Assembly (NCBI GenBank): GCA_002245135.1
Contig: NGBS01001168.1
Span: forward strand, 124,001-188,000
Source: Proteromonas lacertae
Taxonomy: Eukaryota
DNA length: 64,000 nt
Reading direction: 5' to 3'
Every line of letters starts with the position of its first letter. Position 1 is the stretch's first letter. The position numbers and the translations under genes were made by a program. The notes beneath the pieces were generated by a model. That model did not search any database. It saw only the letters and a program-made list of their open reading frames with translations, and had not been told where the DNA came from. Below are positions 2,735 to 59,699 of the stretch, piece by piece.

Positions 2735-5700
2735 ATGGTTAAGGCAGTTAATAAAGTATATGAGCATTGTTTTAGTTTTATAGGGTTATCTGTATTTTAT
2801 ACTGATAATATGTGCATCGCTTAGCCCATCATTATGTATTTTATTTTAAATATTCATAACATAGGCGGTAAACCTGAGAAGACAACATATCGTGAGGATT
2901 ATAGTTTGGTAATAATTAAAGGTAGTATTATTACTCTTCATCCTCCAGAATGTTTCAAATCAGTTAGTTATAAAGAGAATCCACTAATGTACAGTGTTTC
3001 AAATACATATTTACCATCTAATTTTTTCGATAAAATACCAAAAACTTTATTGGATATAAATAATTGTATAGTGAAGTTAGACTATACAAAATTATTGAAA
3101 AACCGAGGAAGAGGATTAAAGCTATTGGAAATTAAGAGTAGATTTGGAGATTTTTATGAAACTATGGGTATAGTTTCATTCATTTATAATTTTTATAGCA
3201 TTAAATGAGACTAGTAATGGTTATCATATCCTTCCTACTGACAAGCATTCTTACTCTCATAAAACATATTATGAAGCTCCACAACTTGATTCTGACCTAT
3301 TGCATTCTAAAAAGAGAAAGTTACAAGCACCAACAACACCTCCAGCAACAACTCCATCTCCATCACCAACAACAGCTCCAACAACAGCTCCAACAACTCC
3401 ACTTGCAACAACAGAACCACCAACAGAACCACCAAAGGATCAAATCTATCGATTTGGTATAGCAGTTGAAGATCCACAAATCGCTGATGATTTTATACAA
3501 ATGATCAGTATATTATTCAATGAATCACAAAATGGTGGAGTTGATGATTTCAAAAGATTTGGAATTGAATTTTACACATATCAAAACTACACAACAACAG
3601 CAACTCCAACAGGATCTATACTTAATGAAAATTATACAATATGGGATGCATTTGAAGCTGATAAAGTAGATCATGCATTTTATGTGACAACATTAGCTGA
3701 TACTAGTAATTTAGATTATGAAGAAATAGCTTCTAAACACAATTTCTTGTTATGGGTATCTGATTATAATATTACTGAACCAACCTGTGGTAATTATATG
3801 TTTCATTTAGATGGACCTGATGCGTTTGCTAGACAATCATTAGAGCCATTATTTATGAGGTTTAATTCTAGAGCTATTTATTTATATGATAAAACTAATG
3901 CAACTGCTGTTGAATTACATGAAGATGCGCTGTTATTGAGAGATCAAAAGAATTTGAAAGTATTGGATTATGAGATAAGTGAAGTTAATGACGCATTCTT
4001 TACAGAAGTAGTAAAAGATGAGTATAAAGACTATCCAGTGTTTATGTTTTTACCAGCTGATAAAATCAAAGAATTTAGAAATTTAGCTACTAAAGCAGAC
4101 TTCTATACCAATCATCCAATTGTTTCAATGGGAATTGCTTTAGAAGAAGAATTAAAAGGCGATTATCAAAATGAAGGATATATGCTTACACATGTATTAA
4201 GTGATTCAGAACCATTTCAAGTTTATCATAAATTATTTAATACAATATTAAAAGATGATTTTATAGATTTTATTCATGGATCATTGTATTAAATATTATG
4301 TATATTTTATTTTTCATAGTTTATTGTTATTAAGAGTATTGTTTGGATTAGCCAATAATATTCAATCATTTGATAAATTAGGTATTAAAGTATATGCTCC
4401 TAATACAAAAATTAGTTCAACAACCTCTAAATCAGTCACTTATATTATTCCTGGAAATAGATTATCTATACCAATATATTTAGGACAATATAATGGTACA
4501 ACTAACCAATTTAAGCAAGTAGAAGAATATATTACATCAGCCTATGAACGTCCTAATATAGTTATTGGTATTCCAAGAAAACAAGAATGTACTGGAAGAT
4601 ATCCTATGTTACTAGGCTTATTAACTTACCTTAAAACTGATGGTCAACAATTATTCTTAAATGCATTTCTATCTAATTTGAGAATATTTAATAATGATGG
4701 AGGAATTCTAGGTAAATATACAACTGCCTTGTTTTTAGATGCAGGTAATGAAACAGCTACAAAAGAAAAAGTATTATATTATATTTTTATTTTTAAAATA
4801 GATAATAGAATATAGTTCAAATGAATTTGCATTAGATGTTATTTTTACTACTCTTTTACCAGCTGAATTAGATACATACTTAAATGATGAGAGATTTAAA
4901 GAAATATTATTCATTTCTATTTCAAATAGTCCAGGTAATATTTGTAGTAAGAATTATATATCTGTATTATATATATATATATAATATTTATTTATTATTA
5001 GATTGGACCAACTCCTGCAATATTCTTTAAGCCATTACAGTTATTCTTCTATAGACATGATGTTAGAACAATCTTTTTCATTACTTCTGATAAGGAGTAT
5101 ATTTATCATATTTATTAATATAAATAAATAGTATTTTAATGTCATACAATGATTATTTTGAAAAGAGAATAACAATGAACGATTTTGATATAGCATATGG
5201 AGGTAAAGCTATCTATTCTGATAAACAAGTTGAAAGTAATTACACAACATTATTCGATAAAATATATGCAATGAGTGATAATGATAAAAGCAGTATAATA
5301 ATAATAATATTATTATTATTATATATCAATAGATACTGTTATTGTTACTATGATTGACCCAATTATTTTTAATAATTTTATTGATGAATGGAAAAATAAT
5401 GCAAAATATAAAGAATTATTAACCAAAACCAAAGTAATTCATTGTTCTTATGATGATCATGAACAAAGTACTCTCGTATAATATATTATATATATAATAA
5501 TGAATGTATAGGATATGGCTGCAGTTAAAGGACATTATTTATTACATCATTACTTTGAATTTTTAGAAAAACCATTAGCTGTAGAATATAAACATGATAT
5601 TGCTAAAAGAACATATGAAGATCCAGATAATATTACAATTTGTGTAAAGTTAGCCGTTTTATATGATGCAATGCAAATATTAAGAAACTGTGTTAGTAGT

Positions 5701-8700
5701 TCATATGATGTATCATTTGATGCTATTACTACATCATTATATCAAGCATATTATCAAGGCGTAACTGGACATTTCGTAGTAAGTGTTGGTTTTACTAGTA
5801 GTTATGAAATGTATTTGGTTAAAGTATATATTATTTATTATTTTATTTGCATTTAATTATTATATTGTAGGTAAATAGTGGAGATTTAGTAGTTGATACT
5901 ATATCAAGTACAATACCTAATCCTGATTCATTTGTTGATCCAAATATTTATTGTGATGTAAATGCTGATAGTTCATCATCATTATATACATATATATTGC
6001 CAATAGTACTATATGGTGCAGATAATGATCAGAATCTTCAAATTCTTGATTTATTTATTAACACTGCAACAATGGTAACAATGAAATCTAGAAGTGGTGA
6101 TGTAAGATTCGTTCCAGTTTATAAGAAACTACATAATAAAGATGAAGTTAAAGATTATTTAAAGAAATATGAAAATGATGATAGAGTGTTGTTATATATT
6201 GCACATGTTATTTTCACTGGTTTGTTAGGAGAATATTTAGAAGGAAGTCAGTCGCAGAAGATTATTATGGTTCCTTTTAATACTAAAGCGTATATTTGTG
6301 ATTTTAGATATGTTCATGTATATATATATATATAATATTATTATTATTATTACTTATATAGACTGGTCCAATTTTATATAATAAGATTTTACCACTATTT
6401 TCAACATTTAGCGATAAATTTGAAGATTGTGTGATGATATATATTGATGATACAACTGATACAGGAATATCTTCTGAAAATCATAATAGATTCAATAGTT
6501 ATTTGAAGTATTTCTCAGCTGGTAAACATGCAAAATGTCTAACTGAGGTAGTATATAAACTTCCAGCTGGTACTACAGAAGCTGTTTATCATCAACAAAT
6601 AGCCACTACATTAAAGAACGATAATAAAGTGAAATCTAATTCTCATATTTTTGTAACAATAGATGTTAAGATATTACCGTTAATGAAAGAATTCAACGAA
6701 ACATTATTCCCAGCTAAACCAGATATTAAAGTGATAATATTAGATTTAACTCAACTAAATATTGATGTAAGTCCATATAAGAATTACACACTAGGTCATT
6801 ATTTAGTTGGTAATTATTTCAGAGATCTTGATATTGGTACAAATAAGAAATACGTTGAATTATATGAAAGTCATTATTGGAATATTCAATATCTGGATTC
6901 ATACTTCTTTTATGCTATTACTTCAATGAATATTCTAAGTGAAATTTACAATAATTTAGGAACTTTATCATCTTCAAATATGAATTTCTTCTTACAGACA
7001 TATTCTTATCAATCTTTTATTGGTAGTATGTCATTTGGAGTATCACAATATTTAAGTGCTTATGTTTTTGTTGCTGAAATTAAAGAAGATAGTTACACAT
7101 TTATAAGTAAATATACAAGTCCTATTGTACAACAAGTATTTGTTCCTATATTAGCTGAAAATACTGACAAAAGAAAGGTTTGTGTAACTGTTAATAATCC
7201 TCCTGAGAAAGATGAACATACATTCTTTGAAGCTTATATACTTGATTATAAAAACTCATTTTCACATTCTTTGTTTTCTTCTACATTAGTAAGTAACATG
7301 ATTGAAGCTAATGCTGAGAAAGTCACTGTGAATAGTAGAGTACAAGTATATTATAATTTATATATACTTTATATTTATTTTTTGTAGTATCCATTGTTTT
7401 TTAGTTGTCCTTCTAGTGATCAAGAATGGGCAACATTAAAGGAAACAATTAAAGATTATGATTTATTAGTTGTTCAATGTAATGATGTAAAAACTAAAGG
7501 ATATTTTACTGATGGAAGTATAAAGAATACAACTTTAATTGCTTATAATGGTTTGTTATATTCAAGTTTTTGTCATAGCAATTTGTATATGATTGTGTAT
7601 TTTATTTTCATAGCTTGAGTTATGGTTTTGAAACTTCATTTTATATTCCAATATTAGCTTATTTATTACCAAAATATGGATCAAATATTGCATATATAGC
7701 ACAGCCAAGTGGTGATAATTATGCTTCATACTATACTATAAAAGGATTTTTGGAAACAATAGGTGCTGGAATCAATCATATTGATTTAAAAGATTATTCT
7801 ACTGAAGAAAATCAAAGTTATTTATATGTTCAATTATCAGTGTTATTGAATGTAAATACAGGAATGAATATATTCTTTTTGTCAGGTATTAAAGATCAAT
7901 TAAAAGGTATGTTAAAAGTATTAAATGATTTAACAAATGCTTTGTATGGAGGTGATTTTGAAGAAGCTGGAAAACATTATATAGCTATTGGATTTGATGC
8001 TGAGAATTTAGAATCAATTGGTAGAGAAGAATCAAATTATATTAAAAACATATTTGTTATTGATTATTATTCATTAAAAGAAGAACATCAAACAGAAAGA
8101 ACAAAAGCAATTAAAAAGGGAATAACAGATTATACAGGTATGGATATTCAAGGAGATTCAAAAGTATATTCAATTTATTGTTTAACTGATAATTTGAAGG
8201 ATGTATTTCCACTTCATCAAGAAGGTCAACCATTTTCTTCCTTAATAAGGACATTAAGTGGAAAAACATTGGATTGGATTTATAAAACAGCAACTATTCA
8301 AGAATCTGGTATTTTAACTTCAACCTTATTCTTAACTGCTATTGAAGATAGTAATAGTGATAAAAATGAGATTATATCATTACAACCAACAAGTATTCCT
8401 TATTCTGGTGCATTAGATGCACTTACAATGAAACAATGTAATTTTGATTTAGAAAATCCAAATGAAATATTATATTCTTATTTAGTTGGAATAATTGTTA
8501 ATACACTTAATCAATTAGATATAGTGATGTATACTGCAATAGCTACAACTTTAAGATATGTTAGTGATATGGATTTACCTAATAATTATGTAATTAGACC
8601 ATATATAATTCAATCATATGAATCTATAATAGCAGAAAAAGTGAATGATACATTATATAATGAAGAAAAAAATATCATTTTTTACATTGGTGGATGGAAT

Positions 8701-11700
8701 AATAATATAAGAAAAAGTATTAATGATATAATTGGAGAATATATTAGAAATACTGGAGAAAAAAGATATTATTTATATCCTGGTCAAGTTGTTGGAAATG
8801 AATGTTTAGAATATACATTCTATTTGAATTTACCATTCATTTCAATGAGTAGAGTATTTACTTCATTTTTAGCAAGAGCTGTTGCAGATTCATTTTATAT
8901 TTTAACTGATCAAGATGAAGATAGAATGAGTCAAGTGAATGTATTGCAAAGTGAATTTAGAGAGAAATCTATAATATTAGATGGAATAACAGTAATACCA
9001 CCTGATGAAACTCAATTAAGTACAGTATTTGAAAGTGTATTAATGAAAATAAGAGGTGGAATTATAATATTAATATCTTATCCACTGAATATTGCAGCTG
9101 TAAATGCATTAGTTAGTTTACAGTTGAATATAACATCTCATCCAATATTTATGTATGAATTTGATATTGCTCAGTTTAATTCAATTGATGCTGTAGAAGC
9201 AGAAAAGTTGGTTAAATCATTTGAAGGTATATATTTACACTCAACTTATCCAATGGAAGTTACAAGTAGTTACACCGACAGATTCCGTAGTTTTTATCAA
9301 TATTTCAATAACTATTATTCAAGTGATGGGAAATATTTAGCAACTGATTATATCCATTATTTTGCAGGTTTAGAATTTATACGTGAAGTAGTAACAGCAG
9401 CTGGTGGTGTTGATAAGACAGAAGATTTTGATAAATATATTCATGGTAAGACATATTCATTATCAATTGGTAATGTATTTTTACAGAATAATAATTATTT
9501 CACAAATACAATGTCAATGATAATGATAAAGAATTATGAAATGAAATTATTATCTGCAATGTATTCTCCTTTACAAGCATCACCTTATTCAATTGCTTTT
9601 AATGGAAAAATAGTTGTATGTGATTGGGTAACAACAGATGAAGATATGAGAGGAATACATGATGTTCCTGATATAGATACACTTCCAGTTGGAATAATTC
9701 TATCATTTGGTAAAGAGAATATTATATTGAATCGTGCTGCATTTGATATGTTAATCACTTTAGTAGATTATATGAATGAACAAGGTGGATTTCAAAACAG
9801 ATTAATTAATTATAAATTATTTGATTATCAAGATAATTTAGAATTAGCTAAAGCTTATACAATTGGTTTAATTGATGCTGGAGTAACATTAGTAATTGGT
9901 TGTGTTGATAATAAATGTAGAAGAGCTGTTGGTCCATTATTTGATAATAGAAATTCAATATTAGTGTATTTAGGAAGTAATGAAGGTCAAGAATGTATTA
10001 AACATGTTTTACATCCTGGAAGAACATTTAGTCAATATTCTAACCTATTAGAAAGAGCAGTTGATATTTTACCATTTAAAGTAGTTTATATAGTAGGAAC
10101 AGATGAAATTTCTATTAATTATTTCTATGAAATAGCTAAGAGTATTTATACTAAATTATCTCCAACTTATGTTGTTAAGAAAATGGTGTTAAAACTACCT
10201 CAAGTAGAATTAACTACATTGTTATACGAAATAATCTTTTCACCTTATAAATCTGTGGTATTTGACTTAACATTAGGAACAGATTTTATTTTATTCAGTA
10301 CAATAATAAATAAAATGAATGTATCTCCAAATCAAGCATTGTTCATATCATTATATTGTCCAGGTATTAATTATGAAAATAAAATAGAATCATTTGAAGG
10401 TAGATATTGTATATCTAGTTTTTATACAGATGGTTCAATGTCAGAAACAAACTATTTATTATGGAAATTCGTTGCTAGAGCTGATGTAATGGAAATAATG
10501 GATAATTTATATTTAGCATTCACTGCATTTTTAGGTATTTTACAAACAGTTGATAATATATTCGATGTTGATGCTTGTATTGATGCTGGTTATTACACTT
10601 ATGTAGAATCAGCCAATGGTAAAGTGCAATTATTCCCTAATAGTTATTGGTCAAGAAATATGTATTTATTGAAATTAGAAAATCAAAAATGGGTTCAAGT
10701 TATTGCTCAAAGTAAACCTGTTGAACCATTAGCTTATGATTGGAATATTGAAGGATCTTATCAGAAATTATGTGATTTCGCTAATAGTATTGGTTTTGAT
10801 GGAATTGTTCCATTATATACAATTGGTATTGCTGTAGCACTAACAGGTCCATATGCTGTATCAGATGATGGATTAAGTGATTTAATGAGAATAACAATTG
10901 ATCAGTTTAATATGATGGGTTTATTACATGAAAAGAGATTATATTATATAGTAATAGATATTGGATCTGATGATAGTACTTGCTATCAAAATATAAAAGC
11001 AAAATTAGATAAAATGAATATATTATTTACCACAGGAACAATGACATGTCAGTATATGTTGGAAGAAGATTTAAAAGATTTAAATATATTATTATTCTCA
11101 TTAGATCAAAGTTATAGTGATAAATGTTCAACTAATATGATATTATTTGGTAGACATGCTAGTTTAAGTAATGATATTGTTGATAGATTATTGTTTTTAC
11201 ATAGAGATTTTGCATTAATTGGTGTTAGTAGAGATTATGGTGAAATGTATTCTAATTATTTTTCAACTTATATTCCTATGTATGGTGGTAATGTCTTATT
11301 TTCAGTATTAGTTCCACCAACTACAACTGATTATGATAAAATATTTAGTAATTTATTTGCTAGAATGTCTGAAGGTATTATTTTATTCTTTGGTTTACCT
11401 GAACATTTGTCAGTTATTATAAATACATTAAAACAAACAGGAAAAGATGAATTATTTGATGTTATATCTTTCACAGTTGCTGAAGAATTTAGTGAATTAA
11501 AAGATTCTAATTTCTATGCAGTTTCTACCTATTGGTATTCTTCAACAACTCAAGATATAGTAAATATGAATAATCATTTAGAAGAATTATTAGGTTATAA
11601 CAGAGTATTATCTGAGAAAATGATATTATCTTATTATGCATTACAATATTGGTTCCAAGCCGCACAAAAAGTACCATCTTTAGATTCGTTGAAAATAAGA

Positions 11701-14700
11701 GATACAATGTATACATTCCCTTATGAAGCTTATAAGTATGGATATTTCCAATTAAAGAAAAATAATATGATTTCTGCTCCAATTATATATGTCAATTTCA
11801 ATTATGGTAAAGGTAGAATGTTATATTATTCGCTATATTCGAAATTACCAAATCAATATGATTATCGTAAGACTTATGAGCCATTCACTTGTGATATTCC
11901 CTCAAACCAAATGAAAATCAAAACAGCTGATGCTAGAATTGCTTTATTATCTAGTATAACAGGAGAATGGAGATTTATTGAAGAATCTTATTTCACAACA
12001 TTTATCTATATAATCGATCAATTAAACGAAGAAGAAGGCGGAATATTTGATACATTTATAATTCCTGAAATAATTGATACTGAATCAAAGATTGAAGGAT
12101 ATGAAAGAGCAATGGAAAGAGTGGTATTAAGAGATGATATTCAAGCGACATTCTTCTTTGGAACAAAAGATGTAGCTGATGTAATATTAGATAAAGCTGA
12201 AATCTACAAGAAGTTAGTATTTTACAGTGGAAGAACTGAAACTGAGATATGTCCTGAATATACAGTAACTGTAGGTCCAGTAAATTCTCAATTACTTCAA
12301 GTATTTGAATTAATCACTCCAAAAGCAGTAGCACTCGTAGTTATTCATGATAATATAACAACGAATATTGATTTCGCTAATATAACTAAATATTATGCTA
12401 GTAATTTTGATACAAATTTCACTGCTTATGATATAACCGAATTAGAGAATATTCCAGAATTGTTAGAAAACGAATATGGAAAAGTTCATCCATATGTATT
12501 GTTTGCTTTAAGTCGTGAAAATTTGATTTCATTTTTGAAAGAAATTCCTCCATCTAAATATCCTCGAAATAAATATGGATTTACATTGTTAGGAATGAAT
12601 GAATATTTTATAGAGAAATATCAAAGTGATGTGAATGGTTTCTTTGCAATTAATTCAATGTTTGATACTTTATTAAGCAATAGAGATTATACTGATCCAA
12701 CTAAAGTATATGCTAACTTATATCAAAAACATTTGAATGGTAGAAATAAATACTATGTAACAGGTGATTCTCAAAGTGCATATGTATCAATAATGTTATG
12801 GCGAAAAGGAGTATTAAATGCATATTCTTTTGATCCATCTTCAGTAAGACATGCTTTATATGGATCTCAGTTAGACACTCCTGGATCTGAGGTAGTAGTT
12901 TTAACAAATAATTATATAACTCATCGTGCCTTTGCTAGTATGATAGTAAGTGGAAGAATAATACCAATTTTAGGTCCAAAAGATCCTTATCAACCAGTAG
13001 TTTATAATCCAAATTATAATGATAATATTTATTATACTTGTGATTGGACCATAGGTTCTTCATCATCATCATCTACAACAAAAACAACAGATTCATCATC
13101 ATCCTCAGAATCATCATCAACATCTCAATCATCTTATGCTAAAATCGAAAATCCAACCAAAATCATCGGATTTATCTTATCAATCACAAGTGAAACTAGA
13201 AAGAAAGCAATGCAATCAATATTCTATGCATCTGTATTAATCGATCGATTGAATTTAAAAGGTGGTTTATTAGGATATTATACAGTTCCAAAGATCTTTG
13301 GATATAGAGATAATAAAATAATGAAGAAACATATGAAAGAGTTTATAGATGATGATCGAGTGGTAGTGATATTTGGATGTTTAGATTTAGAATGTCGAAA
13401 TGAATATTTAAGTAGAGGAAATGGTAAAAAGATGTTATATTATTTTGGTCCAAATGTTGATAATTTCTGTAATCGATATGTATTGAACATGATGCCATCT
13501 GTTTTACAAAAGATTCCTGCAATAACTCGATATTTAATAAATTTGAAAGTAAATAAATTCTACAGTGTGACAAGTGGAAATGAAAAATATCTTTTTTTAT
13601 TATTATTATTTATATATTATAAATTTCCTTAATTTAATTGTCTTACTGAATTAGCTTATGTTAAATATACTGAAAGTTATATAAAATCTAAAGGATTAGA
13701 TTATTTAGGAACAATCTCAATAAATGCCACAGAGTCTGATATAAAATCCAAATTTGATGCAATTCCAATTTCAGAAGATCGAATAGCTTGTATATTTATT
13801 TATTTATCTATTATAATAAATAGTAATAATATTTGTAAAGAATGAATATGCTCCATTTTTAGGTAATTATTTATCCAATAGTTCTAGAGTTCAAGATAAT
13901 ATATTAAAAGCAGTATTAATGGATTATAATTACTTTGATTATGATGCAATCTTAGATCAATTAACAAATGTCTTAATTCCAAATGGTTTTGATAAAGTCT
14001 TAACATCTAGTGGAGTAACAATATTCCGTGAAGATATATTTGATTCATTAAGTTTTGATGTATCTGTTGATTTACATGAAGCAATTTCTACTGCTTTATC
14101 AATATGGCAAAGTGCAGTAAAACTAGCAAGTCAAAATATGGGTAGTAATAATAATGACAATGATAATAAACAATGGCCAACTATTGATTATGAAGCTTTA
14201 GCTATTCATGATATAACTCCTGATTTTCCATCAGGAAGTTCAACAATTGAAAGTAGTAATTATATAGGTAGAACAATGTATATATTTGAAGTAGATTCAA
14301 GTGGAATATTAAACCAAGTATTTCCTCCAATCGGAACAGTAATAATCGATGATCCAACTCCATTTATGAATAATAAAGAAAGTTGTAATTTTGGTCGAAA
14401 AGATACTCAATATGAATATAATGTAGGAATAGTTGTCGTGATTAGTTTATTAATGGCAATAGTAATAATCAGTGTAATATTATGTTCAGTATGGTTATAC
14501 AAACATCGTAAACATGCGATAGTTCAGATAGTTGGAATAAAACATTTAGTATTTATCTTATTAGGTGTATTTGTATTATGTTTATCTCCAATAATGTTTG
14601 TTGTTGCTCCAAATAATGATAGTTATTGTAATGGTAGAGTAGTATTTATAATGATCGGTGTGTTATTGATCTACAGTTCATTCTATTCAGTCACATTGAG

Positions 14701-15508
14701 AAATTTACAAATCTATCGAAGTGGAGTTCAAGGTGTAAATATAATGGGAAATGTTTATATAAATTTCATTTGTTTTGGATTGATTGAAATGATCTTTTTA
14801 GTTGTTTGGTTTATTAATGATCCTTATGTTTATACTAAAACATATTCATCCAAATATTCAACATTCTTTGAGGATGTTTATTTCCCTGAATGTGCTGTAA
14901 ATGGAAATAGTTATTTGTTTGGTCAATTAGCAATCTGTTTTTACATAACATTAATAACTCCAATATTTGGATTTTTCAGTCGTCAATTATTACCAGTATT
15001 TAATGAAACAGCTAGTTTATTTTATACAACTGTAATAACATATATCTTTTTTATAAATATATATAATTATAATCCTTAATGTAATTTAATTTTAGTAGGT
15101 CTTCTTATAACAGCATTAGATTTCATAATCTCTACAGAACCAAATTCATTGATATTAATTCGTGGATTTGGAATTGAGTTTATTTGTATTTTGATAATAG
15201 GAATCTATATTGGAAGTAAAGTATATGCCACATTTACAGATCCTGATGCAGTTCAAGTAATCCTTGATGTTGCTTCTTATGTACAAAATCTATATGTTCA
15301 ATCGAATAAAGATACTAGAAGTAGAAGATCTTCCACTCAAGCAATAGTTTCAACAGCCACAGCTACTTCCACTCAATTACGAAATTCAGCAGTTAGAGAA
15401 AGAATGACAATGAGAACTCAAACTCATTTAAGACCTTCCACAACAGGTGGAGCAGCAGGAACAGCTCGATTATCAGTGAAACTTCCTCCAACTGAAAAGA
15501 AAGAATAA
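2735..15508 (+). CDS. Giant class C GPCR-like receptor (~4,050 aa) with nine tandem UrtA/AmiC-like periplasmic-binding (Venus flytrap) modules and a C-terminal 7TM
   Basis: ATG at 2735 gives signal peptide MVKAVNKGYLYFILIICASLSPSLC after removing introns 2756-2783 and 2836-2864. Sixteen introns join the + ORFs from 2834 to 15508 into one frame. Modules carry GII..., NxxGG(I/L)LG, GCxDxxCR and EGQEC motifs plus CD(W/F)-type linkers. The 7TM shows a basic loop 1 (KHRKHAIV), P..SYCNGR, and FNETA before TM6. Confidence 0.85.
3325..3436 (+). repeat. Pro/Thr-rich linker repeats (PTTA/PTEP) in the giant receptor
   Basis: QAPTTPPATTPSPSPTTAPTTAPTTPLATTEPPTEPP is encoded by ccaacaacagct/acagaacca units, directly after KKRKL. 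Confidence 0.8.
13587..13646 (+). other. U12-type (minor spliceosome) AT-AC intron, 60 nt
   Basis: The 5' site is ATATCTTTT and the branch motif is TTTCCTTAAT, with the AC acceptor about 14 nt downstream. Removing it restores the frame (SGNEN|ELAYVKY). Confidence 0.85.
15042..15095 (+). other. U12-type intron, AT-AG (54 nt); alternative AT-AA end at 15089
   Basis: The 5' site is ATATCTTTT and the branch motif is AATCCTTAAT. Phase-1 removal rejoins TM6. The nearby GT at 15032 is phase-incompatible with the AGs at 15095 and 15098. Confidence 0.72.
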
Positions 15509-15630: not shown

Positions 15631-18600
15631 TTACATCATTTCAACTTGGTTTTGACATCCTTCTCCACTAAATCCATCAAAACATTCGCAAACACCTGTT
15701 GAGTAATTACAAATACCTCTTCCACTACAATCTCGATATTCATTTCCTACTGTATTTGTTGCTTCTTCTGGATCTTCACCAGATGGACATTCAATTAAAC
15801 TACAATCATATCCACGATGTCTTTTATCACATAAACAACCATAAACTTGATTATCAAATCCAACATCTCCACTCTCATGTTTATTTCCAAATCCTTCATA
15901 ACCATTACTCAAATCTTCATTTGATAATAATTCACTCAATGGAACACATCGACCATTTCCATTACAATTATTTGGACAATCTAATCTTTGACAAGCACTT
16001 CCACTAAATCCATCATAACATTTACAAACACCTGTTGTTCTATCACATTCTCCTTGTCCACTACATTCTAATGAAGCATGAGTAGATTGTTCAGAAGAAA
16101 ATATGACGGTTAATGATGATGGAGCTAATGATCGAGTATTACTTAATAATCTTTTACTAATAACTGGTTTACTAAAAGATAATTCAAATTTATTGTTTTT
16201 ATTTACTTTTACTTTCAGTATTTGAGTTTCTATTCCATTTATTATTAATTTTGTTCCAGCAACCATTAATTTCTTAATTTCAACAGTTATTAAGGATGGA
16301 GGATAAGCGATGAAAGGAGATTCAGGATCAGCTAATTTACCAACATAAATATTATTATCATCAGCCTCATTCTCACTAATACTACCACTTCCTATTAATT
16401 GAGTTACACTTCCATCATCATTTTGAATAGTTTTTATAGTATCATCAACAATATTACCATATTTACCAAAATAATAATCATTGCCTTCTTTTCTTACTAA
16501 TTCAAATAAATCACTTGATTCAATATCAATTTCATCTCCTGTTGCTGTTGCTAATAAATAACACATATCTCCATCTGATGGTTTCTCACCTGTAAATATA
16601 AATCCTAAATCATTACCATTGTCACTTACACTAACTTCATATTCTTTCATTAGTTTATCACTATTTGGATTATAACAAACTATATTTACACTCTTTACTA
16701 AAGATATATTGAATCCAACTGATTCAAATATTTGTTTATATCCTATCCATGCTAATTTATGAGATGTAGTATCATAATTTCCACCTTCAGTAGAATCTAT
16801 TTCTAATGGATTTAATAATGTCATATCATTTCTTGTTGATTGTATTTCATTAATATTACATTCAATATCATCAATATAATATTTATCATTTTCTACTATC
16901 TCTGGTTTTTTCTCAACTGCATGATCAAATTGAATATAAGTATATTGACCTTTATTTCCTTTTACATCAACAATTCCCATTACAGGTTTTGAAGTTACTA
17001 CAGTATCTAATGATCTTCTTCTTGGTGGTTGAGTTGTAACTACTGTTTCAATATATTTGCATTGTATTTTTCCTCCTAATACTGGTAATTTAATCATTAT
17101 ATTATTATAAAAATCAGCTACTTTATATAAGTGTTTCTTATCATCAAGTGGAGTATTATCAATTATAAGTGATTCTGTAGGTGAAGCAACACTAACAACT
17201 CCTGTTGCTTCATAACCTGTTGGTATTGCTGGTGTGAATGGAATTTCTATTGTTGAATCACTTAATAATAATCTTGATTTAGATGGTGATATGATTGTTG
17301 CTTTATGATTATATCGGCTAGTTACATCTTCTTTTCTTTCTATTTCAATTAAGATAGTTTCACCAACTGATAAATATTCTAAATCATTATTCTGAATATC
17401 CTTTTCAACGATAGTTATTTTTGATTCTTCTATTTTGTTTTTATGAGTATCAAATACAAATACTGGAAGTTGACTCTTTTCATCCACAGTAACTTCAATT
17501 CCTTCACTAGGTTTTGTGTATTTACCATAATAATAGTCTTCTTCATCTTCATTCTTTAATGGATCTCCTTTTCTAATATAAGCGCCTAAATCACTATCTA
17601 ATAAATTATCTAATTCTATCTTAACAATATTATCACCATCAACTTTAGCTGCTAAATAACAAATATCATCTTTTGATGGTTTAGATTGACTATCTCCTGT
17701 TCTACTTATAGTAAATTCAATACTTTCATCAGCTGCTGCTTTATCAACAGTTACAGTATCATATATTGTCATTTTATTATTATCACTACTACCAGGAGTA
17801 TAACATGCAAAATAACCATCAAAACTCTCAGCTGTAAGTTGTCTTCCTGGCGATGGTACTTCAGTTGGTTTAAATGTCATTCCAGTGAGTATTGTACCAT
17901 ATCCTTTCCATTTTAATTTATGATTTTCTTCATCATAATTTCCTGCTTCTAATTTCATTGGATTATACATTGTGAAATCTTTTCTAATGGATGATATTCC
18001 ACTACATTTCATTGTAGTAATTTCACTACTTGAAACTTGACTAGAAAATTCAACATAACTAAACTTAACAACTATTTTAGAAGTAATTTCTACTGTTATA
18101 TATCCTTTTACATCAGCAGATACAGCTATTGTAGAATCACCACTAATATAACTACATTTCAATATTCCTCCTAATTTGTCATTCAAATTCATTATTAATT
18201 TATCAGCCAAATTATATACTTTATAAATTGTAGTTCCAGTTATTGGATTAGTTTCAGCATTAGGTGATGGATGATCTAATGGATTTGATGAATGAGTTTT
18301 GATGTATGGTAACATAATTCCATCAATTTTATCACCATCTAGTTTTATTGTTGTTGATTCAGAAATAGTTCCCTTTTCTTCACTCAACTTTCCATCACTA
18401 TGATATACATCAACATAAACAACCCTTCCATTCACTATTAATTCAGAAGACATAGAAATTGTAGCAGTTGTACCAGCTTCTATTTTTACATAGTTTGCAT
18501 CAGTAGTTTTTATTACAGCATATCCATTAACATCAACAGTATTACTAGTATATTTACCTAATTTATAACCATTTTCTGTATTAACATAATTTATTAATTC

Positions 18601-19737
18601 AGTATTTTCAATGTTAATTGGATTAACATCACCACTCATTAAGCAATAACACATTTCATCATCTTTAGGATTAGCACTACCACTAAATGTAAATACTAAA
18701 TCGCCTTTTGTATTACTTTCACTATCTGTGTATGTTGCAGTTACACCATCATAAACTGTAATACCAGAAATTGCTGCTTTATCAGTTGGTTGAGTATAAC
18801 AAGCAAATTTAAAATTAGTCTTTTCATAAATCACTTCACCTTCCAATCCTCTTCTTCTTGCTGATGGAGTTGTTGAAGGAGAAGGAGATTCTGATGGTGT
18901 ATCTGAAGGGGAAGGAGATTCTGTTGGTGTTGTTGAAGGAGAAGGAGATTCTGATGGTGTATCTGAAGGGGAAGGAGATTCTGTTGGTGTTGTTGATGGT
19001 GTTGGTTGTTCTGTTGGTTTTACTTCTAATACACCTATTTCTTTCAATATTTTACCATAATATTCCCATGATAATACTTTTTCATCAGCTAATTGTCTTG
19101 TAGAATTACTTTGTAATCTTCTAGTTTTAGATTTAATAGTAGTATTAGCATTAACATAAACCATTGTCTTTCGAATAGAAATGATTTTATCACAAGTAAT
19201 TACAGTTTTATCTTTTACTGAATCTTCAGGAAACTGAACATATGCTGTTGTTTTATTATCAAAAACACCTAATACTTCAACAATGATATTTGCAGCACCA
19301 GCTATACTACATTGAATAACACCTCCCATTTTTGGTAATGACTTTAATAACTCATCAATTCCACTCACTTTCCATACCTTATTCTCAGCTTCGGTAGAGA
19401 AAGGTTCAATCAATTTCATTGTTGAGGGAGATAACACTCGTCTATTGGTATTCACAACCTCGTCCAACTCACGATAATCAGGAGAGTAGTCACTGTTACT
19501 TACGGGATATTTACTTGAAACAGAAGCGAATGGGTTGCCTTCCATACACTTCACTAAGGAACAGTCACTTCCTGTGTAACTCTTTCTACTCCCATCAACG
19601 CCAATACTGTCGTAACAAACACAATTGTTTGAAACGCATTTACCGTGGCCACTACAACCATTTGGGCAAACACATAGTCCCATAATCACAATCATGCTAA
19701 AAGCAATGAGATAAACAGTCTTGTTTTGCTGTTTCAT
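15631..19737 (-). CDS. Secreted EGF/tenascin-type Cys-rich protein of the stramenopile Sig1/tubular-mastigoneme family, with three large internal repeats (intronless, 1368 aa)
   Basis: Signal peptide, then N-terminal CPNGCSGHGKC...YTGSDCSLVKC. The C-terminus has ECSGQGECDRTTGVCKCYDGFSGSACQRLDCPNNCNGNGRC and CPSGEDP...RDCSGRGICNYSTGVCECFDGFSGEGCQ, the Cys pattern typical of Sig/Ocm/Mas proteins. Confidence 0.75.
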   Translation of the reverse strand: MKQQNKTVYLIAFSMIVIMGLCVCPNGCSGHGKCVSNNCVCYDSIGVDGSRKSYTGSDCSLVKCMEGNPFASVSSKYPVSNSDYSPDYRELDEVVNTNRRVLSPSTMKLIEPFSTEAENKVWKVSGIDELLKSLPKMGGVIQCSIAGAANIIVEVLGVFDNKTTAYVQFPEDSVKDKTVITCDKIISIRKTMVYVNANTTIKSKTRRLQSNSTRQLADEKVLSWEYYGKILKEIGVLEVKPTEQPTPSTTPTESPSPSDTPSESPSPSTTPTESPSPSDTPSESPSPSTTPSARRRGLEGEVIYEKTNFKFACYTQPTDKAAISGITVYDGVTATYTDSESNTKGDLVFTFSGSANPKDDEMCYCLMSGDVNPINIENTELINYVNTENGYKLGKYTSNTVDVNGYAVIKTTDANYVKIEAGTTATISMSSELIVNGRVVYVDVYHSDGKLSEEKGTISESTTIKLDGDKIDGIMLPYIKTHSSNPLDHPSPNAETNPITGTTIYKVYNLADKLIMNLNDKLGGILKCSYISGDSTIAVSADVKGYITVEITSKIVVKFSYVEFSSQVSSSEITTMKCSGISSIRKDFTMYNPMKLEAGNYDEENHKLKWKGYGTILTGMTFKPTEVPSPGRQLTAESFDGYFACYTPGSSDNNKMTIYDTVTVDKAAADESIEFTISRTGDSQSKPSKDDICYLAAKVDGDNIVKIELDNLLDSDLGAYIRKGDPLKNEDEEDYYYGKYTKPSEGIEVTVDEKSQLPVFVFDTHKNKIEESKITIVEKDIQNNDLEYLSVGETILIEIERKEDVTSRYNHKATIISPSKSRLLLSDSTIEIPFTPAIPTGYEATGVVSVASPTESLIIDNTPLDDKKHLYKVADFYNNIMIKLPVLGGKIQCKYIETVVTTQPPRRRSLDTVVTSKPVMGIVDVKGNKGQYTYIQFDHAVEKKPEIVENDKYYIDDIECNINEIQSTRNDMTLLNPLEIDSTEGGNYDTTSHKLAWIGYKQIFESVGFNISLVKSVNIVCYNPNSDKLMKEYEVSVSDNGNDLGFIFTGEKPSDGDMCYLLATATGDEIDIESSDLFELVRKEGNDYYFGKYGNIVDDTIKTIQNDDGSVTQLIGSGSISENEADDNNIYVGKLADPESPFIAYPPSLITVEIKKLMVAGTKLIINGIETQILKVKVNKNNKFELSFSKPVISKRLLSNTRSLAPSSLTVIFSSEQSTHASLECSGQGECDRTTGVCKCYDGFSGSACQRLDCPNNCNGNGRCVPLSELLSNEDLSNGYEGFGNKHESGDVGFDNQVYGCLCDKRHRGYDCSLIECPSGEDPEEATNTVGNEYRDCSGRGICNYSTGVCECFDGFSGEGCQNQVEMM
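18862..19002 (-). repeat. 60-bp tandem repeat encoding PSTTPTESPSPSDTPSESPS (about 2.3 copies)
   Basis: Near-identical gaaggagattctgatggtgtatctgaaggggaaggagattctgttggtgttgttga units at about 18880 and 18940. Confidence 0.9.
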
Positions 19738-30084: not shown

Positions 30085-30205
30085 TCATTAAATAAAATGT
30101 TATGATATATTTTTTATATTATCAATATAATATATATAAACTCTTTTTTTTTTTGATTAATCACAAACACATAATAAAAATAATCTATTATTATTATACA
30201 CTTAA

Positions 30206-31252
30206 TTAATCTGAATCACTATATTCTACTTTCTTCTTTTTACCTTTTGTAAGTTTCTTTTTCTTTAGATACTCCCATCTCTTTATATTTCTACAACAAA
30301 AACAATGTTTCACTATTTTTAATTTATTCTCATTATATGGTTCATGCTTTTTACCATTACCTTTTTGTTTATCTCTTGATAGAAATGACCATAACGGTTT
30401 ATAATGAGCTATTCTCCCACATTTACAAAAACCATTTGTTTTTATTCTTTCTTCTTCTTCCCATGATAATCCTGTTAATTCATCAATTTTTCTATCCATT
30501 GCACATTCTATACATAAAAATGTATATTTTATTTTATCATAAAAACATTTATATAAATTATTTTCTTTGTTACATTTTGAACAAACAACTTTCATTTCTT
30601 CATATTGAAGATACATACTTAATGCTTTTTTGTCATAATCTTTATCTAATCCATAAAATTCAGGATTTAAATTTTTATAATAATATTTGTTTAAAACTGA
30701 AGACGAGTTAATTATTTGAGATAATATACTCTTTGGATCTGATAAACTAGACAATGATGAAAATATATCATCTTCACTATAAGTTTCTTTTGAACCAGTA
30801 GTTATAGATGTAGGATGAGAAGATCTGTCTGCTGGTAATGATGCTGCTGCTGGAAGAGATTCTTCTGTAGCAATAATCTCTGTGTTATATATTGTTTGTG
30901 AAATTGGATTTTGAATAAAAGTAGAGTATTCTGATGATTTTTGTGGAGGAGGACTAGAAGAATCATTATCATATTTCAAACTCATTGAACCAAGTTTCTC
31001 TGATAAGAAATCACTACAGTCTATTCGACTATTTGGTCTAACATTAACACTTCTATCTCTATCTCTTAGAAAATCATTACTATTTACTAACTCATCAGGA
31101 ATTGATTCACTAATATTAATTGATTGAGTGTAATCAACATGTTGTAAATGTTCTCCACCCTTGTTTGTATCAAGATCAGACAGATTGTCTACAAATGCTG
31201 AACTAGTAGAATTACAGGCGTCTTCATCATCTTCTATGAAAGTTGAAAACAT
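30206..31252 (-). CDS. Cys-rich zinc-finger family protein (subtype C), intronless
   Basis: Disordered Ser/Asp N-terminus, then CSKC...CIEC...FCKCGRIAHYKPLWSFLSRDKQKG...CFCCRN. Close paralog of 61151-62185. Confidence 0.75.
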   Translation of the reverse strand: MFSTFIEDDEDACNSTSSAFVDNLSDLDTNKGGEHLQHVDYTQSINISESIPDELVNSNDFLRDRDRSVNVRPNSRIDCSDFLSEKLGSMSLKYDNDSSSPPPQKSSEYSTFIQNPISQTIYNTEIIATEESLPAAASLPADRSSHPTSITTGSKETYSEDDIFSSLSSLSDPKSILSQIINSSSVLNKYYYKNLNPEFYGLDKDYDKKALSMYLQYEEMKVVCSKCNKENNLYKCFYDKIKYTFLCIECAMDRKIDELTGLSWEEEERIKTNGFCKCGRIAHYKPLWSFLSRDKQKGNGKKHEPYNENKLKIVKHCFCCRNIKRWEYLKKKKLTKGKKKKVEYSDSD

Positions 31253-31485
31253 CAAGCTTAAGCTTGATATAAAAAATCTTTTGAATATTCTATCTCTATT
31301 ATATTAAGATTAGATGTGAATGATATTATTTCTAATCATAATAATAACTTAACACTGTATAATGGCTATACTAAGGCAAAATTTTGTAAAAAGATGAGAT
31401 TGATTGTTCCACGACAAAAATACATTAAAAATAATCAATTATATACTATATTTATATGAATCAATATTCTCTCTTCTTCTTCTTC

Positions 31486-32491
31486 TTACCATTTCAATTT
31501 GTACTTTTTCTTTTTCTTCAGATATTCCCATCTCTTGTAGTTTCGACAATAAAAACATTGTTTCTCTAGCTTTAATGCATTTTCATTTACAGATACATGC
31601 TTTTTACTGTTAACTGTCTGTTTATCTCTTGATAAAAAACACCATAAAGGTTTATAATGAGCTAATCTTTTACACTTACAAAATCCTTCTATTCTACCTT
31701 TTTCTTCTTCTTCCCATGATAATCCTGCTAAGTCTTCACCATTCTTATTAACTGCGCATTCTACACATAAGAATGAATTATCTTTTTTATCACAAAAACA
31801 TTTATACAAATATTTTTCCTTTCTTACACTCACAACATTTTACCTTTTTATATTCATTTTGAAGGTATTTACTCAGCTGCTTTTTTATCAAAATCAGCTT
31901 TTAATCCATAAAAAACAGGATTTAAATTTCCAGAATATTTGTTTGAAATAGAAGATGAATTGTAAATTTGAAAGATATTCTTTGGATTTGTCAAACTTGA
32001 CAATGATGAATAATCTTCATTTTTATAACTTCCTGTAATGTTTGAAACATCAGAGACAGTTGGAGGTTGAGGAGTTGTGCAAGTTGATAACGACGGCGCT
32101 GGATGTGCTTCTTTTATATCATCAGCTTCTGTGTTATTTAAAGATTCTGCCATAGAAACACAAGTGTGTAATGAAGAGGAGTCTGGAGGTAGATTTATAG
32201 ATATAGAATCATCCTCTAAACCTATAGTGCCATACTCATCACATAAACTGTTACTCTCCTCTAATGGATTTTTTGGTGTAATATCACCACTTATATCCCT
32301 ACATCTCAATAATTCACGGGTGTTGTTTGAATTATCAGGGAGTGTTTGAATATTATCTAATTCTAATGGAAAATGGCAATATTGAATTTTTTCTGCATCA
32401 CTGCCTGTGTCTAGATAATGCAGAGGGTCTATTACTGGTGATCCACTAGCATTATTAGTATATTGTTGATTAATCATAGTTTATTAAAACA
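31486..32491 (-). pseudogene. Zinc-finger family copy (subtype C) broken by two +1 frameshifts and a damaged start
   Basis: ORFs 31869-32477 and 31486-31833 join through DFDKK./.LSKYLQNEYKKVKCCEC/KEKYLYKC after two single-base shifts. The ATG homologous to the paralogs' start is followed by TTT TAA. Confidence 0.75.
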
Positions 32492-32649
32492 TCAAACCCA
32501 AGCTTGGTCAAAATAGAAAATTTTTACATAATTTCGACATGGAATCATCATGCAAGTAAAACATTATTATAACTATCGATATGATCTATTCTAGTATCAG
32601 TTTCTATGTCAGTTGATGTTTTCCTACATATTTCCAATTTTTATCTTCA

Positions 32650-40295: not shown

Positions 40296-40338
<43 letters not shown>

Positions 40339-51657: not shown

Positions 51658-52561
51658 ATGAAGGGAAGGAAACTATCTCAATCTCTCGAAAGATCTGCTT
51701 TAAGGTATTTAATATCGAAATATACAGCATTTAGGTCTAAACGAATGCAATTTCAAAAACCTTCAATAAATTCTAACTTTGATAAAACAGTTTCTCAACA
51801 TTTAGATCCAGTAAAAGAAGAATCTCCTGCATTAGTGTCTATGACGAATCTGTCAATTACTAGTCCTACTGCCAAAATAAGCACTCCTACTCATGCATTT
51901 CAATCTTCATCGCCTGTAAATATTCCAACAAAGGATGAAATGAAGATGTATCTCCTTTAATCTATGTTTTGTAGAATTAATCGTAAGAAATGGATTTTAC
52001 AATTCCATACAAAAGAATTGAATATTCATGATGCTTTATTAGCTGATTCATCAGAAGAATTGAGAAATGTATGATTATATATATAAATATAATGAATAGT
52101 TTTACTGTAATCTATTCTTATATTTAATATATTTGATATTGATATTTGTGTCTCTATTCAAGTATATTGTATAATATATAATGCATTAGATCTCCAATCC
52201 ATTTTCCTTATGAACAGAATCAATTTCTAAGAAGCTTGTTTTTGGATAGAATGTACCAAAGTCAAGATTATGATCAAAACTTTGATGATATTGTATCACA
52301 TAAACAAATGTGGTTTTGGATAAATCAAACAATGGTACCTGGATTATATGAATATGAAAAAATATCAGATCAAACACTGATAGGTGATATTGAAGTAAGG
52401 CAGATGAGAGTGAAGAAAGAGAGTTGTAAATCTCCAATTGATGTATTTAGTAATGAATCATGTATTCCTCCATTTTCACTAAGCAATGAAGAAAAATCAC
52501 CATATAACTGGTATAAAGGTAAAACAGGACCAATATATAAGTATTTATATATATATATATA

Positions 52562-52602
<41 letters not shown>

Positions 52603-56715: not shown

Positions 56716-56908
56716 TAAAATTATTTCATAAATTATATTATATTTCTGTAAAATGTGTTTTTGAAATGTAAATATAGTTAAGTTTGAGAAAAGCTTGATA
56801 TTTTAAAACTTTTAGAAAGAGCTAATACATCATTTTCTTTTGATTTTATTGTTAATAACTGAAATATTTATTATATAAACCATATTGCAAATTGAAGTTA
56901 ATCAAATT

Positions 56909-58165: not shown

Positions 58166-58270
58166 TTAAAAAATAATATAATGTTATATATTATGTTAAT
58201 GTTTATATATCTTCTTTTACATAAAAATATGATCAAGCCAATTTTCGAGCTTCTCTGTTTTTTGTTTTAA

Positions 58271-59622: not shown

Positions 59623-59654
<32 letters not shown>

Positions 59655-59699
59655 GATGAAGAAGAAAGTGATGATGAAAAAGAAGATTATGATGAATAG
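58271..59699 (+). CDS. Zinc-finger family protein (subtype B) with one +1 frameshift near 58795-58830 and an acidic tail
   Basis: ORF 58271-58840 continues in the +1 frame as 58794-59699, with CNVC...CVPC...LCKRMKHYKPNWSF...QCSYCRNFKK. No GT-AG intron spans the break. Confidence 0.68.

What the first reader, a model, noticed from the sequence alone, without database searches (positions are those of the whole stretch)
2735..15508. Giant class C GPCR with nine tandem bacterial-type UrtA/AmiC ligand-binding modules
Seen: 16 introns splice about a dozen apparent ORFs into one ~4,050-aa protein. It has a signal peptide, a ~190-aa N-terminal segment ending KKRKL, a Pro/Thr stalk and nine ~380-aa modules starting near 3450, 4600, 5990, 7220, 8480, 9680, 10815, 11930 and 13160. 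Each module closes with a Cys linker (ECTG, YCDV, VCVT, QCNF, VCDW, LCDF, TCDI, TCDW, SCNF), and a 7TM with a Ser/Thr-rich tail follows. Established: class C GPCRs (mGluR, GABA-B, Dictyostelium Grl) normally carry at most one Venus-flytrap-type domain. Motifs such as GCVDNKCRRAVGPLFD...LVYLGSNEGQEC and CDW resemble the bacterial urea/amide-binding UrtA/AmiC family more than animal ANF-type flytraps. Inference: a bacterially derived solute-binding domain was fused to a eukaryotic 7TM and amplified nine-fold. The modules diverge strongly and the membrane-proximal ones look best conserved. This could be a multi-ligand metabolite antenna or a long sensory stalk. I know of no description of this architecture.
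Basis: partly seen in the sequence, partly recalled or inferred. Interest (0 to 1): 0.9.

Follow-up and report, generated by a model that had tools for sequence, protein, structure and literature searches.

The report
Nine-flytrap urea-binder-derived class C receptor
This protist gene encodes one giant cell-surface receptor in which nine copies of a bacterial urea-binding protein fold sit in a row on a class C G-protein-coupled membrane domain; it belongs to a wider family we did not find described, and it likely senses small molecules other than urea.

Summary
Sixteen introns give one stop-free 4,053-aa frame; two of them are AT-start, U12-like introns. Every module-module and module-7TM junction lies inside an exon. 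All nine modules beat 200 shuffles each on a profile built from homologues. Profiles, PDB sequences and folds rank UrtA first, AmiC next, animal flytraps far lower. The 'Cys linker' is the C-terminal tail of cyanobacterial-type UrtA.

The gene is not unique. Of 150 listed hits, 38 are AT-rich-coded tandem-module relatives whose modules group by position from the membrane. A single-ORF nine-module 7tm_3 protein (P0008) and a Capsaspora receptor share the design. P0008 keeps the full urea pocket in 5 of 9 modules; the window's modules keep 0-3 of 8 residues.

Best reading: a rigid flytrap chain, mostly relay modules, with one or a few re-tuned pockets (M7 best) driving a class C 7TM. Ligand, splicing and G-protein coupling are untested. 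Bacterial-binder/7tm_3 fusions are known; this tandem UrtA form was not found in print.

The parts
2735..15508 (+). Whole gene: 17 exons, 16 introns, 4,053 aa (4,055 with the alternative last acceptor)
2735..2866 (+). Signal-peptide-like N-terminus (aa 1-25, across introns 1 and 2)
   Evidence: read by eye from the translation; no signal-peptide predictor was run
2867..3323 (+). About 140-aa N-terminal segment ending KKRKL, possibly a pro-piece cut by a kexin/furin-type protease (inference)
   Evidence: the only such basic motif found; no Pfam match at E 0.01; no similarity to the modules
3324..3434 (+). Pro/Thr-rich stalk
   Evidence: sequence
3435..4593 (+). Module M1 (most eroded; Cys 322 and 578)
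   Evidence: homologue profile 14.9-25.7 bits, 0 of 200 shuffles as high; not above shuffles with the bacteria-only profile
4594..5957 (+). Module M2 (Cys 686 and 957)
   Evidence: bacteria-only profile 21 bits, homologue profiles 101-111 bits; partial Peripla_BP_5 E 0.02
5958..7186 (+). Module M3 (Cys 1072 and 1352)
   Evidence: Peripla_BP_5 E 1.3e-6; TIGR03407 E 4.3e-5
7187..8442 (+). Module M4 (eroded; Cys 1468 and 1747)
   Evidence: homologue profile 18-31 bits, 0 of 200 shuffles as high; not above shuffles with the bacteria-only profile
8443..9624 (+). Module M5 (Cys 1869 and 2141)
   Evidence: bacteria-only profile 15.6 bits, homologue profiles 106-118 bits; no PBP family in Pfam or NCBIfam
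9625..10776 (+). Module M6
   Evidence: Peripla_BP_5 E 5.9e-19; model against UrtA 7s6f Z 45.8, rmsd 2.1 over 374 residues
10777..11895 (+). Module M7, best candidate for a working, re-tuned pocket
   Evidence: end-to-end match to UrtA 7s6e, E 1.4e-11; 8 of 9 pocket positions identical in P0002 against 56% background, P 0.045
11896..13044 (+). Module M8
   Evidence: TIGR03407 E 2.2e-14; model against 8tg1 Z 43.2, rmsd 2.7 over 359 residues
13045..14389 (+). Ser/Thr insert plus module M9 (membrane-proximal, split by two introns)
13587..13646 (+). U12-like AT-AC intron (ATATCTTT ... TTCCTTAAT ... AC)
   Evidence: the splice aligns without a gap to intronless relatives; ORFs P0001 and P0002 run out at the same point, reading EYPF and EYLF
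14429..15205 (+). Class C 7TM domain (aa 3713-3953)
   Evidence: seven hydrophobic segments; 7tm_3 61.8 bits, cut-off 33.5; PDB hits are mGlu receptors
15042..15095 (+). U12-like intron in TM6 (AT-AG, or AT-AA ending at 15089)
15206..15508 (+). Ser/Thr-rich cytoplasmic tail
   Evidence: 27% Ser+Thr over the last 93 aa; relatives 21-33%

Best explanation
The gene encodes one class C receptor with nine UrtA-derived flytrap modules joined head to tail on a 7TM domain, and it likely works as a rigid chain in which one or a few re-tuned pockets (M7 the best candidate) close on a small molecule other than urea and pass the change down to the 7TM. Shown: the architecture, the UrtA fold, loss of the urea-binding residues, near-constant linker length, and position-specific conservation across the family. 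Predicted: fixed packing of neighbouring modules and of the last module on the 7TM (AlphaFold pTM 0.77 and 0.79). Inferred: a cyanobacterial-type UrtA, tail included, was fused to a GABA-B-style 7TM (no cysteine-rich domain) and duplicated in tandem. Members such as P0008 would still sense urea. In this AT-rich lineage the gene then multiplied, and the pockets drifted while the scaffold was kept, as in a chemoreceptor repertoire. Most modules, including M9, would be relays rather than binders. G-protein coupling and dimer formation are assumed from the class and untested.
For: Every junction lies inside an exon. Single ORFs carry modules plus 7tm_3: P0008 (9 modules), P0018 (7), P0019, P0036, P0021, Capsaspora P0080. 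MAFFT put 32 of 32 relatives in the same register on M6-M8. The third and second positions from the membrane form clades of 35 and 36 modules, support 1.0 and 0.986, holding M7 and M8. Linker length has a median of 19-20 at each of the five junction types nearest the membrane, n 18-33 each. Models: window M6-M8 pLDDT 85.4, pTM 0.77; last two modules plus 7TM of the paralogue P0018 pLDDT 88.2, pTM 0.79. Residues conserved at 70% or more per position are mostly Cys, Gly, Pro, Trp and Tyr, while most pocket columns vary. Window pockets keep 0-3 of 8 UrtA residues, and none of 163 AT-rich modules keeps more than 4; P0008 keeps 8 of 8 in 5 of 9 modules and only 2-3 in its two membrane-proximal ones (residues from PMC10392092). 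The M7 pocket is 9 of 9 identical in P0001 and 8 of 9 in P0002.
Against: The M7 signal is weak: P 0.045 for one of three modules with a full comparison, uncorrected, and P 0.27 against P0001. M6 and M8 pockets are no better kept than background (3 of 9 each against P0002). Pocket positions were mapped by profile alignment, which is uncertain in these loops. pTM shows one confident packing, not allostery, and only five of the nine positions were modelled (two of them in a paralogue). The window and P0001 carry a long Ser/Thr insert at the M8-M9 junction (44 and 35 against about 19) that could loosen the chain. The modelled flytrap-to-7TM geometry differs from GABA-B and mGlu (rmsd 24-32 A over 700-820 columns), so their activation path may not apply. 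The window's TM3 has Val where P0008, P0034 and P0036 have the Lys of K-x-W-R (its role as ionic lock is recalled). An AU test does not reject placing the AT-rich modules outside UrtA (p 0.455).
Confidence: 0.5

Rival explanations
1. Multi-ligand antenna: most of the nine modules bind different solutes and the receptor sums their occupancy.
For: All nine keep the fold signature and the Cys pair. The modules differ strongly from each other (best pairwise E 1.4e-8). P0008 shows that several active-looking pockets can sit in one chain. Variable pockets across paralogues also fit diversified ligands.
Against: M6 and M8 pocket positions are not conserved above background in the closest relatives. 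M1 and M4 are barely recognisable. Membrane-proximal modules lack the urea pocket even in P0008 and P0063.
Confidence: 0.22
2. Structural stalk: the pockets are dead, and the rigid array is a spacer or adhesion rod that carries a tip (M1 or the N-terminal segment) through a surface coat; the 7TM is gated by force, protein contact, proteolysis or a ligand of its own.
For: No module keeps the urea pocket. Conserved residues are structural. Linker length is fixed. There is a mucin-like stalk, a basic cleavage-like motif and 22 N-glycosylation sequons. P0019 has a basic RRR-x-x-RQL stretch at the junction before its last module.
Against: M7 pocket positions are kept across three related genes. Position-specific identity over at least five positions is more than a plain spacer needs. 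The tip modules are among the most eroded. GC-richer relatives keep full pockets.
Confidence: 0.25
3. Artefact: separate binding-protein genes and a 7TM gene were joined by over-generous splicing, notably through two non-canonical introns.
For: The model uses two AT-start introns, and no transcript was examined.
Against: All junctions lie within exons, and in-frame GT-AG alternatives also exist at both sites (6 and 10). The AT-AC splice aligns gap-free with intronless relatives. Eleven AT-rich relatives plus P0008, P0063 and P0080 run from modules into the 7TM in one ORF.
Confidence: 0.03

Closest known systems
GABA-B-type class C GPCRs (and mGlu/CaSR/T1R)
   Same: 7tm_3 domain under a type I periplasmic-binding-protein flytrap; short stalk without the nine-cysteine domain, as in GABA-B (PMC12716839 passages); Foldseek aligns the paralogue model with full-length GABA-B and mGlu chains at E about 1e-23.
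   Different: Nine flytraps instead of one; flytraps from UrtA, not ANF_receptor (Z 45.8 against 31.9); different predicted flytrap-to-7TM geometry.
Non-animal class C receptors with bacterial solute-binding ectodomains (Dictyostelium Grl with Bmp; Allomyces and chytrid OpuAC, SBP_bac_1, PBP_like_2; Plasmodiophora; anaerobic gut fungi)
   Same: A bacterial solute binder fused to 7tm_3 in a microbial eukaryote, often in expanded families (PMC3251606 section; PMC4815078; PMC5168858; PMC10445921).
   Different: The passages read name other binder families and no tandem array. The longest ectodomain in PMC3251606 is 1,667 aa, against about 3,710 here.
UrtA, the urea ABC-transporter binding protein (TIGR03407; PDB 7s6e, 7s6f, 8hic, 8tg1)
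   Same: Top hit by profile, sequence and fold; same EGxEC Cys and C-terminal CDW Cys; the cyanobacterial tail motif survives at 29 of 166 junctions in AT-rich relatives.
   Different: Far below the family cut-off (51-65 bits for M6-M8 against 492.75); urea-binding residues mostly gone; part of a eukaryotic receptor, not a free binding protein of a transporter operon.
Capsaspora owczarzaki CAOG_05347 (XP_004347032; P0080)
   Same: Tandem Peripla_BP_5 modules plus 7tm_3 in one 2,173-aa protein; its best module groups with the other eukaryotic modules.
   Different: About three to four modules with long inserts; named only as a hypothetical or family 3 GPCR protein by its sources; pocket 3 of 8.
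Other multi-flytrap receptors (trypanosome receptor adenylate cyclases, BvgS/EvgS; recalled, not tested)
   Same: More than one flytrap in series above a membrane signalling domain.
   Different: Two modules, and a cyclase or kinase output rather than a 7TM (recalled).

Membership tests
Class C GPCR (7tm_3) | Seven-helix domain scoring as PF00003 | tested here: met
   61.8 bits against cut-off 33.5, E 1e-16; seven hydrophobic segments; seven helices in the paralogue model
Class C GPCR (7tm_3) | Large N-terminal type I binding-protein (flytrap) ectodomain | tested here: met
Class C GPCR (7tm_3) | Cys at the top of TM3 and Cys in ECL2 (recalled hallmark) | tested here: met
   C3779 and C3867 align with conserved Cys of the relatives; the bond itself was not examined
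Class C GPCR (7tm_3) | TM3 Lys / TM6 Glu ionic-lock pair (recalled; typical, not strictly defining) | tested here: not met
   TM6 FNE is kept; the TM3 Lys of K-x-W-R in P0008, P0034 and P0036 is Val in the window
Class C GPCR (7tm_3) | Signals through heterotrimeric G proteins | not testable with these tools
   no genome is held for this window, so G-alpha genes could not be sought; needs an assay
Class C GPCR (7tm_3) | Obligate dimer | not testable with these tools
   needs cross-linking, FRET or cryo-EM
mGlu/CaSR/T1R subgroup | Nine-cysteine domain (NCD3G) between flytrap and 7TM | tested here: not met
   only 14 residues and no Cys between the last module Cys (3698) and TM1 (3713); no NCD3G hit
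Animal-type ANF_receptor flytrap | Scores as PF01094 rather than as bacterial binder families | tested here: not met
   best single module E 0.0078, 15.7 bits against cut-off 25.4, while Peripla_BP_5/6 reach 1e-14 to 1e-20; first eukaryotic receptors rank 35 and 37 in Foldseek
UrtA (TIGR03407) | Type I binding-protein fold of the UrtA kind with its C-terminal Cys tail | tested here: met
   M6 Z 45.8, rmsd 2.1, 374 aligned; M7 aligned end to end with 7s6e
UrtA (TIGR03407) | Curated score cut-off 492.75 | tested here: not met
   best single module 64.8 bits
UrtA (TIGR03407) | Urea pocket W120, S122, Y141, Q144, E146, Y190, N246, S274 (PMC10392092) | tested here: not met
   0-3 of 8 in each of the nine modules; 8 of 8 in three of the four annotated UrtA controls and in 5 of 9 P0008 modules
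UrtA (TIGR03407) | Descent from within the UrtA clade rather than from AmiC-like or LivJ proteins | tested here: inconclusive
   three trees place the modules inside UrtA (support 0.976, 94, 99) and two place them with cyanobacterial-type UrtA (98, 96), but the AU test does not reject a place outside (p 0.455); branches are long
AmiC amide sensor | Closer to AmiC than to UrtA | tested here: not met
   PDB sequence E 0.002 against 3e-18; Foldseek 9e-18 against 2.5e-22; Z 39.4 against 45.8
U12-type (minor) introns | RTATCCTT donor, TCCTTAAC-like branch site near the 3' end, often AT-AC ends (recalled consensus) | tested here: inconclusive
   both introns have ATATCTTT (one mismatch) and TCCTTAAT; one ends AC; homologue ORFs end EYPF or EYLF at the same site; minor snRNAs and transcripts could not be examined

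The most novel reading that the evidence does not exclude
This is a member of an undescribed, cross-supergroup family of eukaryotic GPCRs built once from cyanobacterial UrtA. Its conserved members (P0008 type) are urea receptors with up to nine flytraps packed into one rigid allosteric rod. In this AT-rich protist lineage it has become a large chemoreceptor repertoire with re-tuned pockets, and signals travel tens of nanometres through flytrap-to-flytrap contacts.
Probability: 0.35. Interest if true: 0.9.

Novelty: new variant of a known kind. Interest (0 to 1): 0.76.

Why it matters
Class C receptors are understood as one flytrap per subunit. A family with three to nine flytraps in fixed order and spacing asks how closure far from the membrane reaches the 7TM, and it offers natural short and long versions to test that. 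P0008 gives a direct experiment: five modules keep every residue known to hold urea in UrtA, so it is a candidate urea-sensing GPCR (I recall none described; not checked beyond the searches named). The expansion to dozens of divergent relatives, all from unnamed assemblies in the 17 looked up, points to a large sensory repertoire in a protist lineage whose receptors seem unstudied. The family also carries a conserved U12-like intron position.

Tried and rejected
No whole genome is held, so paralogue counts and G-protein genes in this organism could not be surveyed. No RNA holder was listed; this says nothing on expression. Two metagenome scans found no relative. Word-index searches with the window's M9b-7TM (longer proteins) and with the P0008 7TM (shorter proteins, E 1e-10) found nothing; both are weak tests. 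The ESM Atlas gave no answer. A two-copy complex of the last module of paralogue P0019 gave no verdict (score 0.00, alignment not used). The first automatic model with GT-AG-type introns only (15 introns, 4,033 aa) was dropped: it lost the signal peptide and cut conserved residues in M9 and TM6. The careful IQ-TREE searches did not finish, so the trees are quick trees with SH-aLRT only, on 61 and 43 rows chosen from about 290. Twelve of 303 modules with fewer than 250 aligned residues were dropped before the FastTree run, and its root was not placed as asked, so only unrooted groups are used. The claim 'descent from cyanobacterial UrtA shown by phylogeny' was weakened after the AU test; it now rests on shared motifs and scores. 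The full tail motif is absent from all 8 window junctions. 'AmiC-type' and 'animal ANF-type' origins scored lower everywhere. Earlier scan notes held nothing by sequence or place or for the first word set. The organism's lineage was not determined.
Full report
Observation. A splice-aware script gave a 15-intron frame. Reading the sites by hand gave 16 introns and a stop-free 4,053-aa protein from 2735 to 15508. Introns are 28-60 nt and 10.8% GC against 27.5% in exons. Two begin ATATCTTT and carry TCCTTAAT near the 3' end, like minor (U12) introns; they are the only matches of that pattern in the window. The first splice (AT-AC, 13587-13646) aligns without a gap to relatives that lack the intron. 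The ORFs of the two closest relatives, P0001 (79% identical over the long exon) and P0002 (47%), run out at the same point, as do about a dozen other relatives. For the last intron an AT-AA end six bases earlier matches homologue length better. All nine junctions, including M9 to 7TM, lie inside exons, so the architecture does not depend on any intron joining whole domains.

Nine modules. Pfam sees M3, M6, M7, M8 and half of M9 as Peripla_BP_5/6; NCBIfam names UrtA as best family for the same five, far below its cut-off. A profile of six bacterial proteins scores seven of nine modules above all 200 shuffles, failing on M1 and M4. Profiles from homologue modules that exclude the window, P0001 and P0002 score all nine above all shuffles, and seven control sequences from the window score at most 3.6 bits. 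Each module has two Cys 255-280 residues apart. They match the EGQEC Cys and the terminal CDW Cys of UrtA; a disulfide is inferred, not checked. An AlphaFold model of M6-M8 has pLDDT 85.4 and pTM 0.77. Its best matches are four UrtA structures (E 2.5e-22 to 1.4e-21; Z 43-46), then AmiC (Z 39), with mGlu chains at Z 32.

The 7TM. It scores as 7tm_3, and all 25 PDB sequence hits are mGlu receptors. There is no nine-cysteine domain. The TM3 and ECL2 Cys and the TM6 FNE motif are kept; the TM3 Lys is not.

A family, not a one-off. A phmmer search with M6-M8 against 1.84 billion representatives gave 313 hits at E 0.001. Of the 150 listed, 38 are proteins with AT-rich-type composition and 3-9 tandem modules; most are probably single exons. 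Eleven run into the 7TM in the same ORF, four of them through all seven helices. P0027 has a signal-like start and nine modules, ending at the shared intron site. All 17 AT-rich hits looked up are unnamed Logan records, so I cannot say how many species they represent. Five hits have GC-richer composition: P0008 (3,745 aa, nine Peripla_BP_5 plus 7tm_3 in one ORF, starting mid-module), P0063 (three modules plus 7tm_3), fragments P0039 and P0045, and P0080, which is Capsaspora owczarzaki CAOG_05347. That P0008, P0063, P0039 and P0045 are eukaryotic is inferred from the 7tm_3 domain or the tandem layout.

History of the array. Modules group by position from the membrane, not by protein: 35 third-position modules with M7 (support 1.0) and 36 second-position modules with M8 (0.986); deeper positions and M6/M9 are poorly resolved. 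MAFFT independently put 32 of 32 relatives in that register. So the array predates the gene expansion. The linker is the UrtA tail: 79 of 80 fetched loci, nearly all titled cyanobacteria, end in a CDW..G..Y/F motif; it recurs at 9 of 15 GC-richer and 29 of 166 AT-rich junctions, against 5 of 106 other hits, 0 of 5 non-cyanobacterial references and 17 of 20,000 shuffles; the window's own 8 junctions have lost the full motif. Two mixture-model quick trees place all eukaryotic modules with cyanobacterial-type UrtA (98 and 96), and one of them as a single clade (83). Against this, FastTree separated the AT-rich modules from most GC-richer ones, and an AU test did not reject a place outside UrtA (p 0.455). 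One origin from cyanobacterial-type UrtA is likely but not shown.

Pockets. Using eight residues that hold urea in Prochlorococcus UrtA (PMC10392092, passages), the window's modules keep 0-3, and 163 AT-rich modules from 39 proteins keep at most 4. P0008 keeps all eight in five modules and 6 of 6 covered in its truncated first module, but only 3 and 2 in the two nearest the membrane; P0063 keeps 8 in its second-last module and 1 in its last. Among the three closest genes only M7 keeps its pocket positions above background (8 of 9 against 56%, P 0.045 uncorrected); M6 and M8 keep 3 of 9. Across paralogues the conserved columns are structural.

How it likely works. Linkers are almost constant in length (median 19-20). 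Both multi-domain models have high pTM: 0.77 for M6-M8, and 0.79 for the last two modules plus 7TM of paralogue P0018. I infer a rigid chain. A ligand would close one or a few clefts, and the change would pass through fixed contacts to a non-binding last module and so to the 7TM. In P0008-like members the ligand would be urea; here it would be something else. This is committed at 0.5. Rivals are a many-ligand antenna (0.22), a dead-pocket stalk (0.25) and a splicing artefact (0.03). The Ser/Thr insert before M9 and the unusual flytrap-to-7TM geometry are not explained by the relay model.

Organism. Not determined. Short AT-rich introns, U12-like AT-AC introns (common in Blastocystis: PMC10639083 and PMC5608401, passages) and a polycystin-RyR gene (reported from oomycetes: PMC7399828, passages) suggest a stramenopile. 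This is inference.

What is known. Bacterial solute binders fused to 7tm_3 are described from fungi, Dictyostelium, Capsaspora and Plasmodiophora: PMC3251606 (passages and one section), PMC4815078 (passages), PMC5168858 (passages), PMC10445921 (passages), PMC3971589 (passages), PMC12716839 (passages; the one supplementary file held had no match to the Capsaspora ids or Peripla_BP_5; its domain table, file 12, was not seen). PMC12965686 (abstract) describes a flytrap without 7TM in Entamoeba. PMC8687355 (passages) adds nothing. The main texts of two Blastocystis genome papers do not contain 'GPCR' (PMC12129017; PMC5608401). Searches listed no paper on tandem UrtA-type class C receptors; no paper held both 'GPCR' and 'UrtA' as whole words. 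Subscription journals, figures and most supplements were out of reach. An earlier scan note reports five ANF-type flytraps on one 7TM in invertebrates (e1-8666125; unchecked), so tandem flytraps may have arisen more than once.

Verdict. It is a class C receptor by sequence, with UrtA-derived modules that are not UrtA by pocket. It is a new variant of a known kind, and one member of a broad family not found in print. Interest 0.76.

Noticed in passing
P0008 (unnamed record, 3,745 aa): Single-ORF receptor with nine UrtA modules and 7tm_3; five modules keep all eight urea-binding residues. The best candidate for a urea-sensing GPCR and a better test object than the window's gene.
   Followed up: partly
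window 52182-56715 (+): Polycystin channel exons joined by a 40-nt GT-AG intron (54587-54626) to two RyR domains: a PKDRR-like channel, which PMC7399828 calls oomycete-only. If this organism is not an oomycete, the range widens.
   Followed up: partly
window 13587-13646 and 15042-15095 (+): Two U12-like introns in one gene, with donor ATATCTTT. The first position is shared by about a dozen relatives whose ORFs end there; P0034 ends at the second position.
   Followed up: partly
window 38130-40589 (-): DUF4457 protein, E 1e-134; recalled as a cilium-base protein (KATNIP/KIAA0556), which may hint that the organism has flagella.
   Followed up: no
window 15631-19737 (-): 1,368-aa secreted-looking protein with EGF/teneurin-type repeats at its ends and several RRLQ/RRRSLD-like basic motifs, tail to tail with the receptor gene.
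   Followed up: no
P0126 (unnamed record, 421 aa): Single UrtA with a eukaryote-like leader that groups with picocyanobacterial-type UrtA apart from the receptor modules: possibly a separate transfer into a eukaryote.
   Followed up: no
window about 30200-32500 and 56900-63700: Several ORFs with similar Cys-rich C-terminal ends (C-x2-C and C-x-C-C-R-N-like motifs) that look like a local family of divergent zinc-binding proteins; not scanned against Pfam.
   Followed up: no
P0044, P0046, P0059, P0075: Proteins of 1,450-1,600 aa with one UrtA-like module at each end and a membrane segment between, probably bacterial sensors; another use of UrtA as a signalling module.
   Followed up: no
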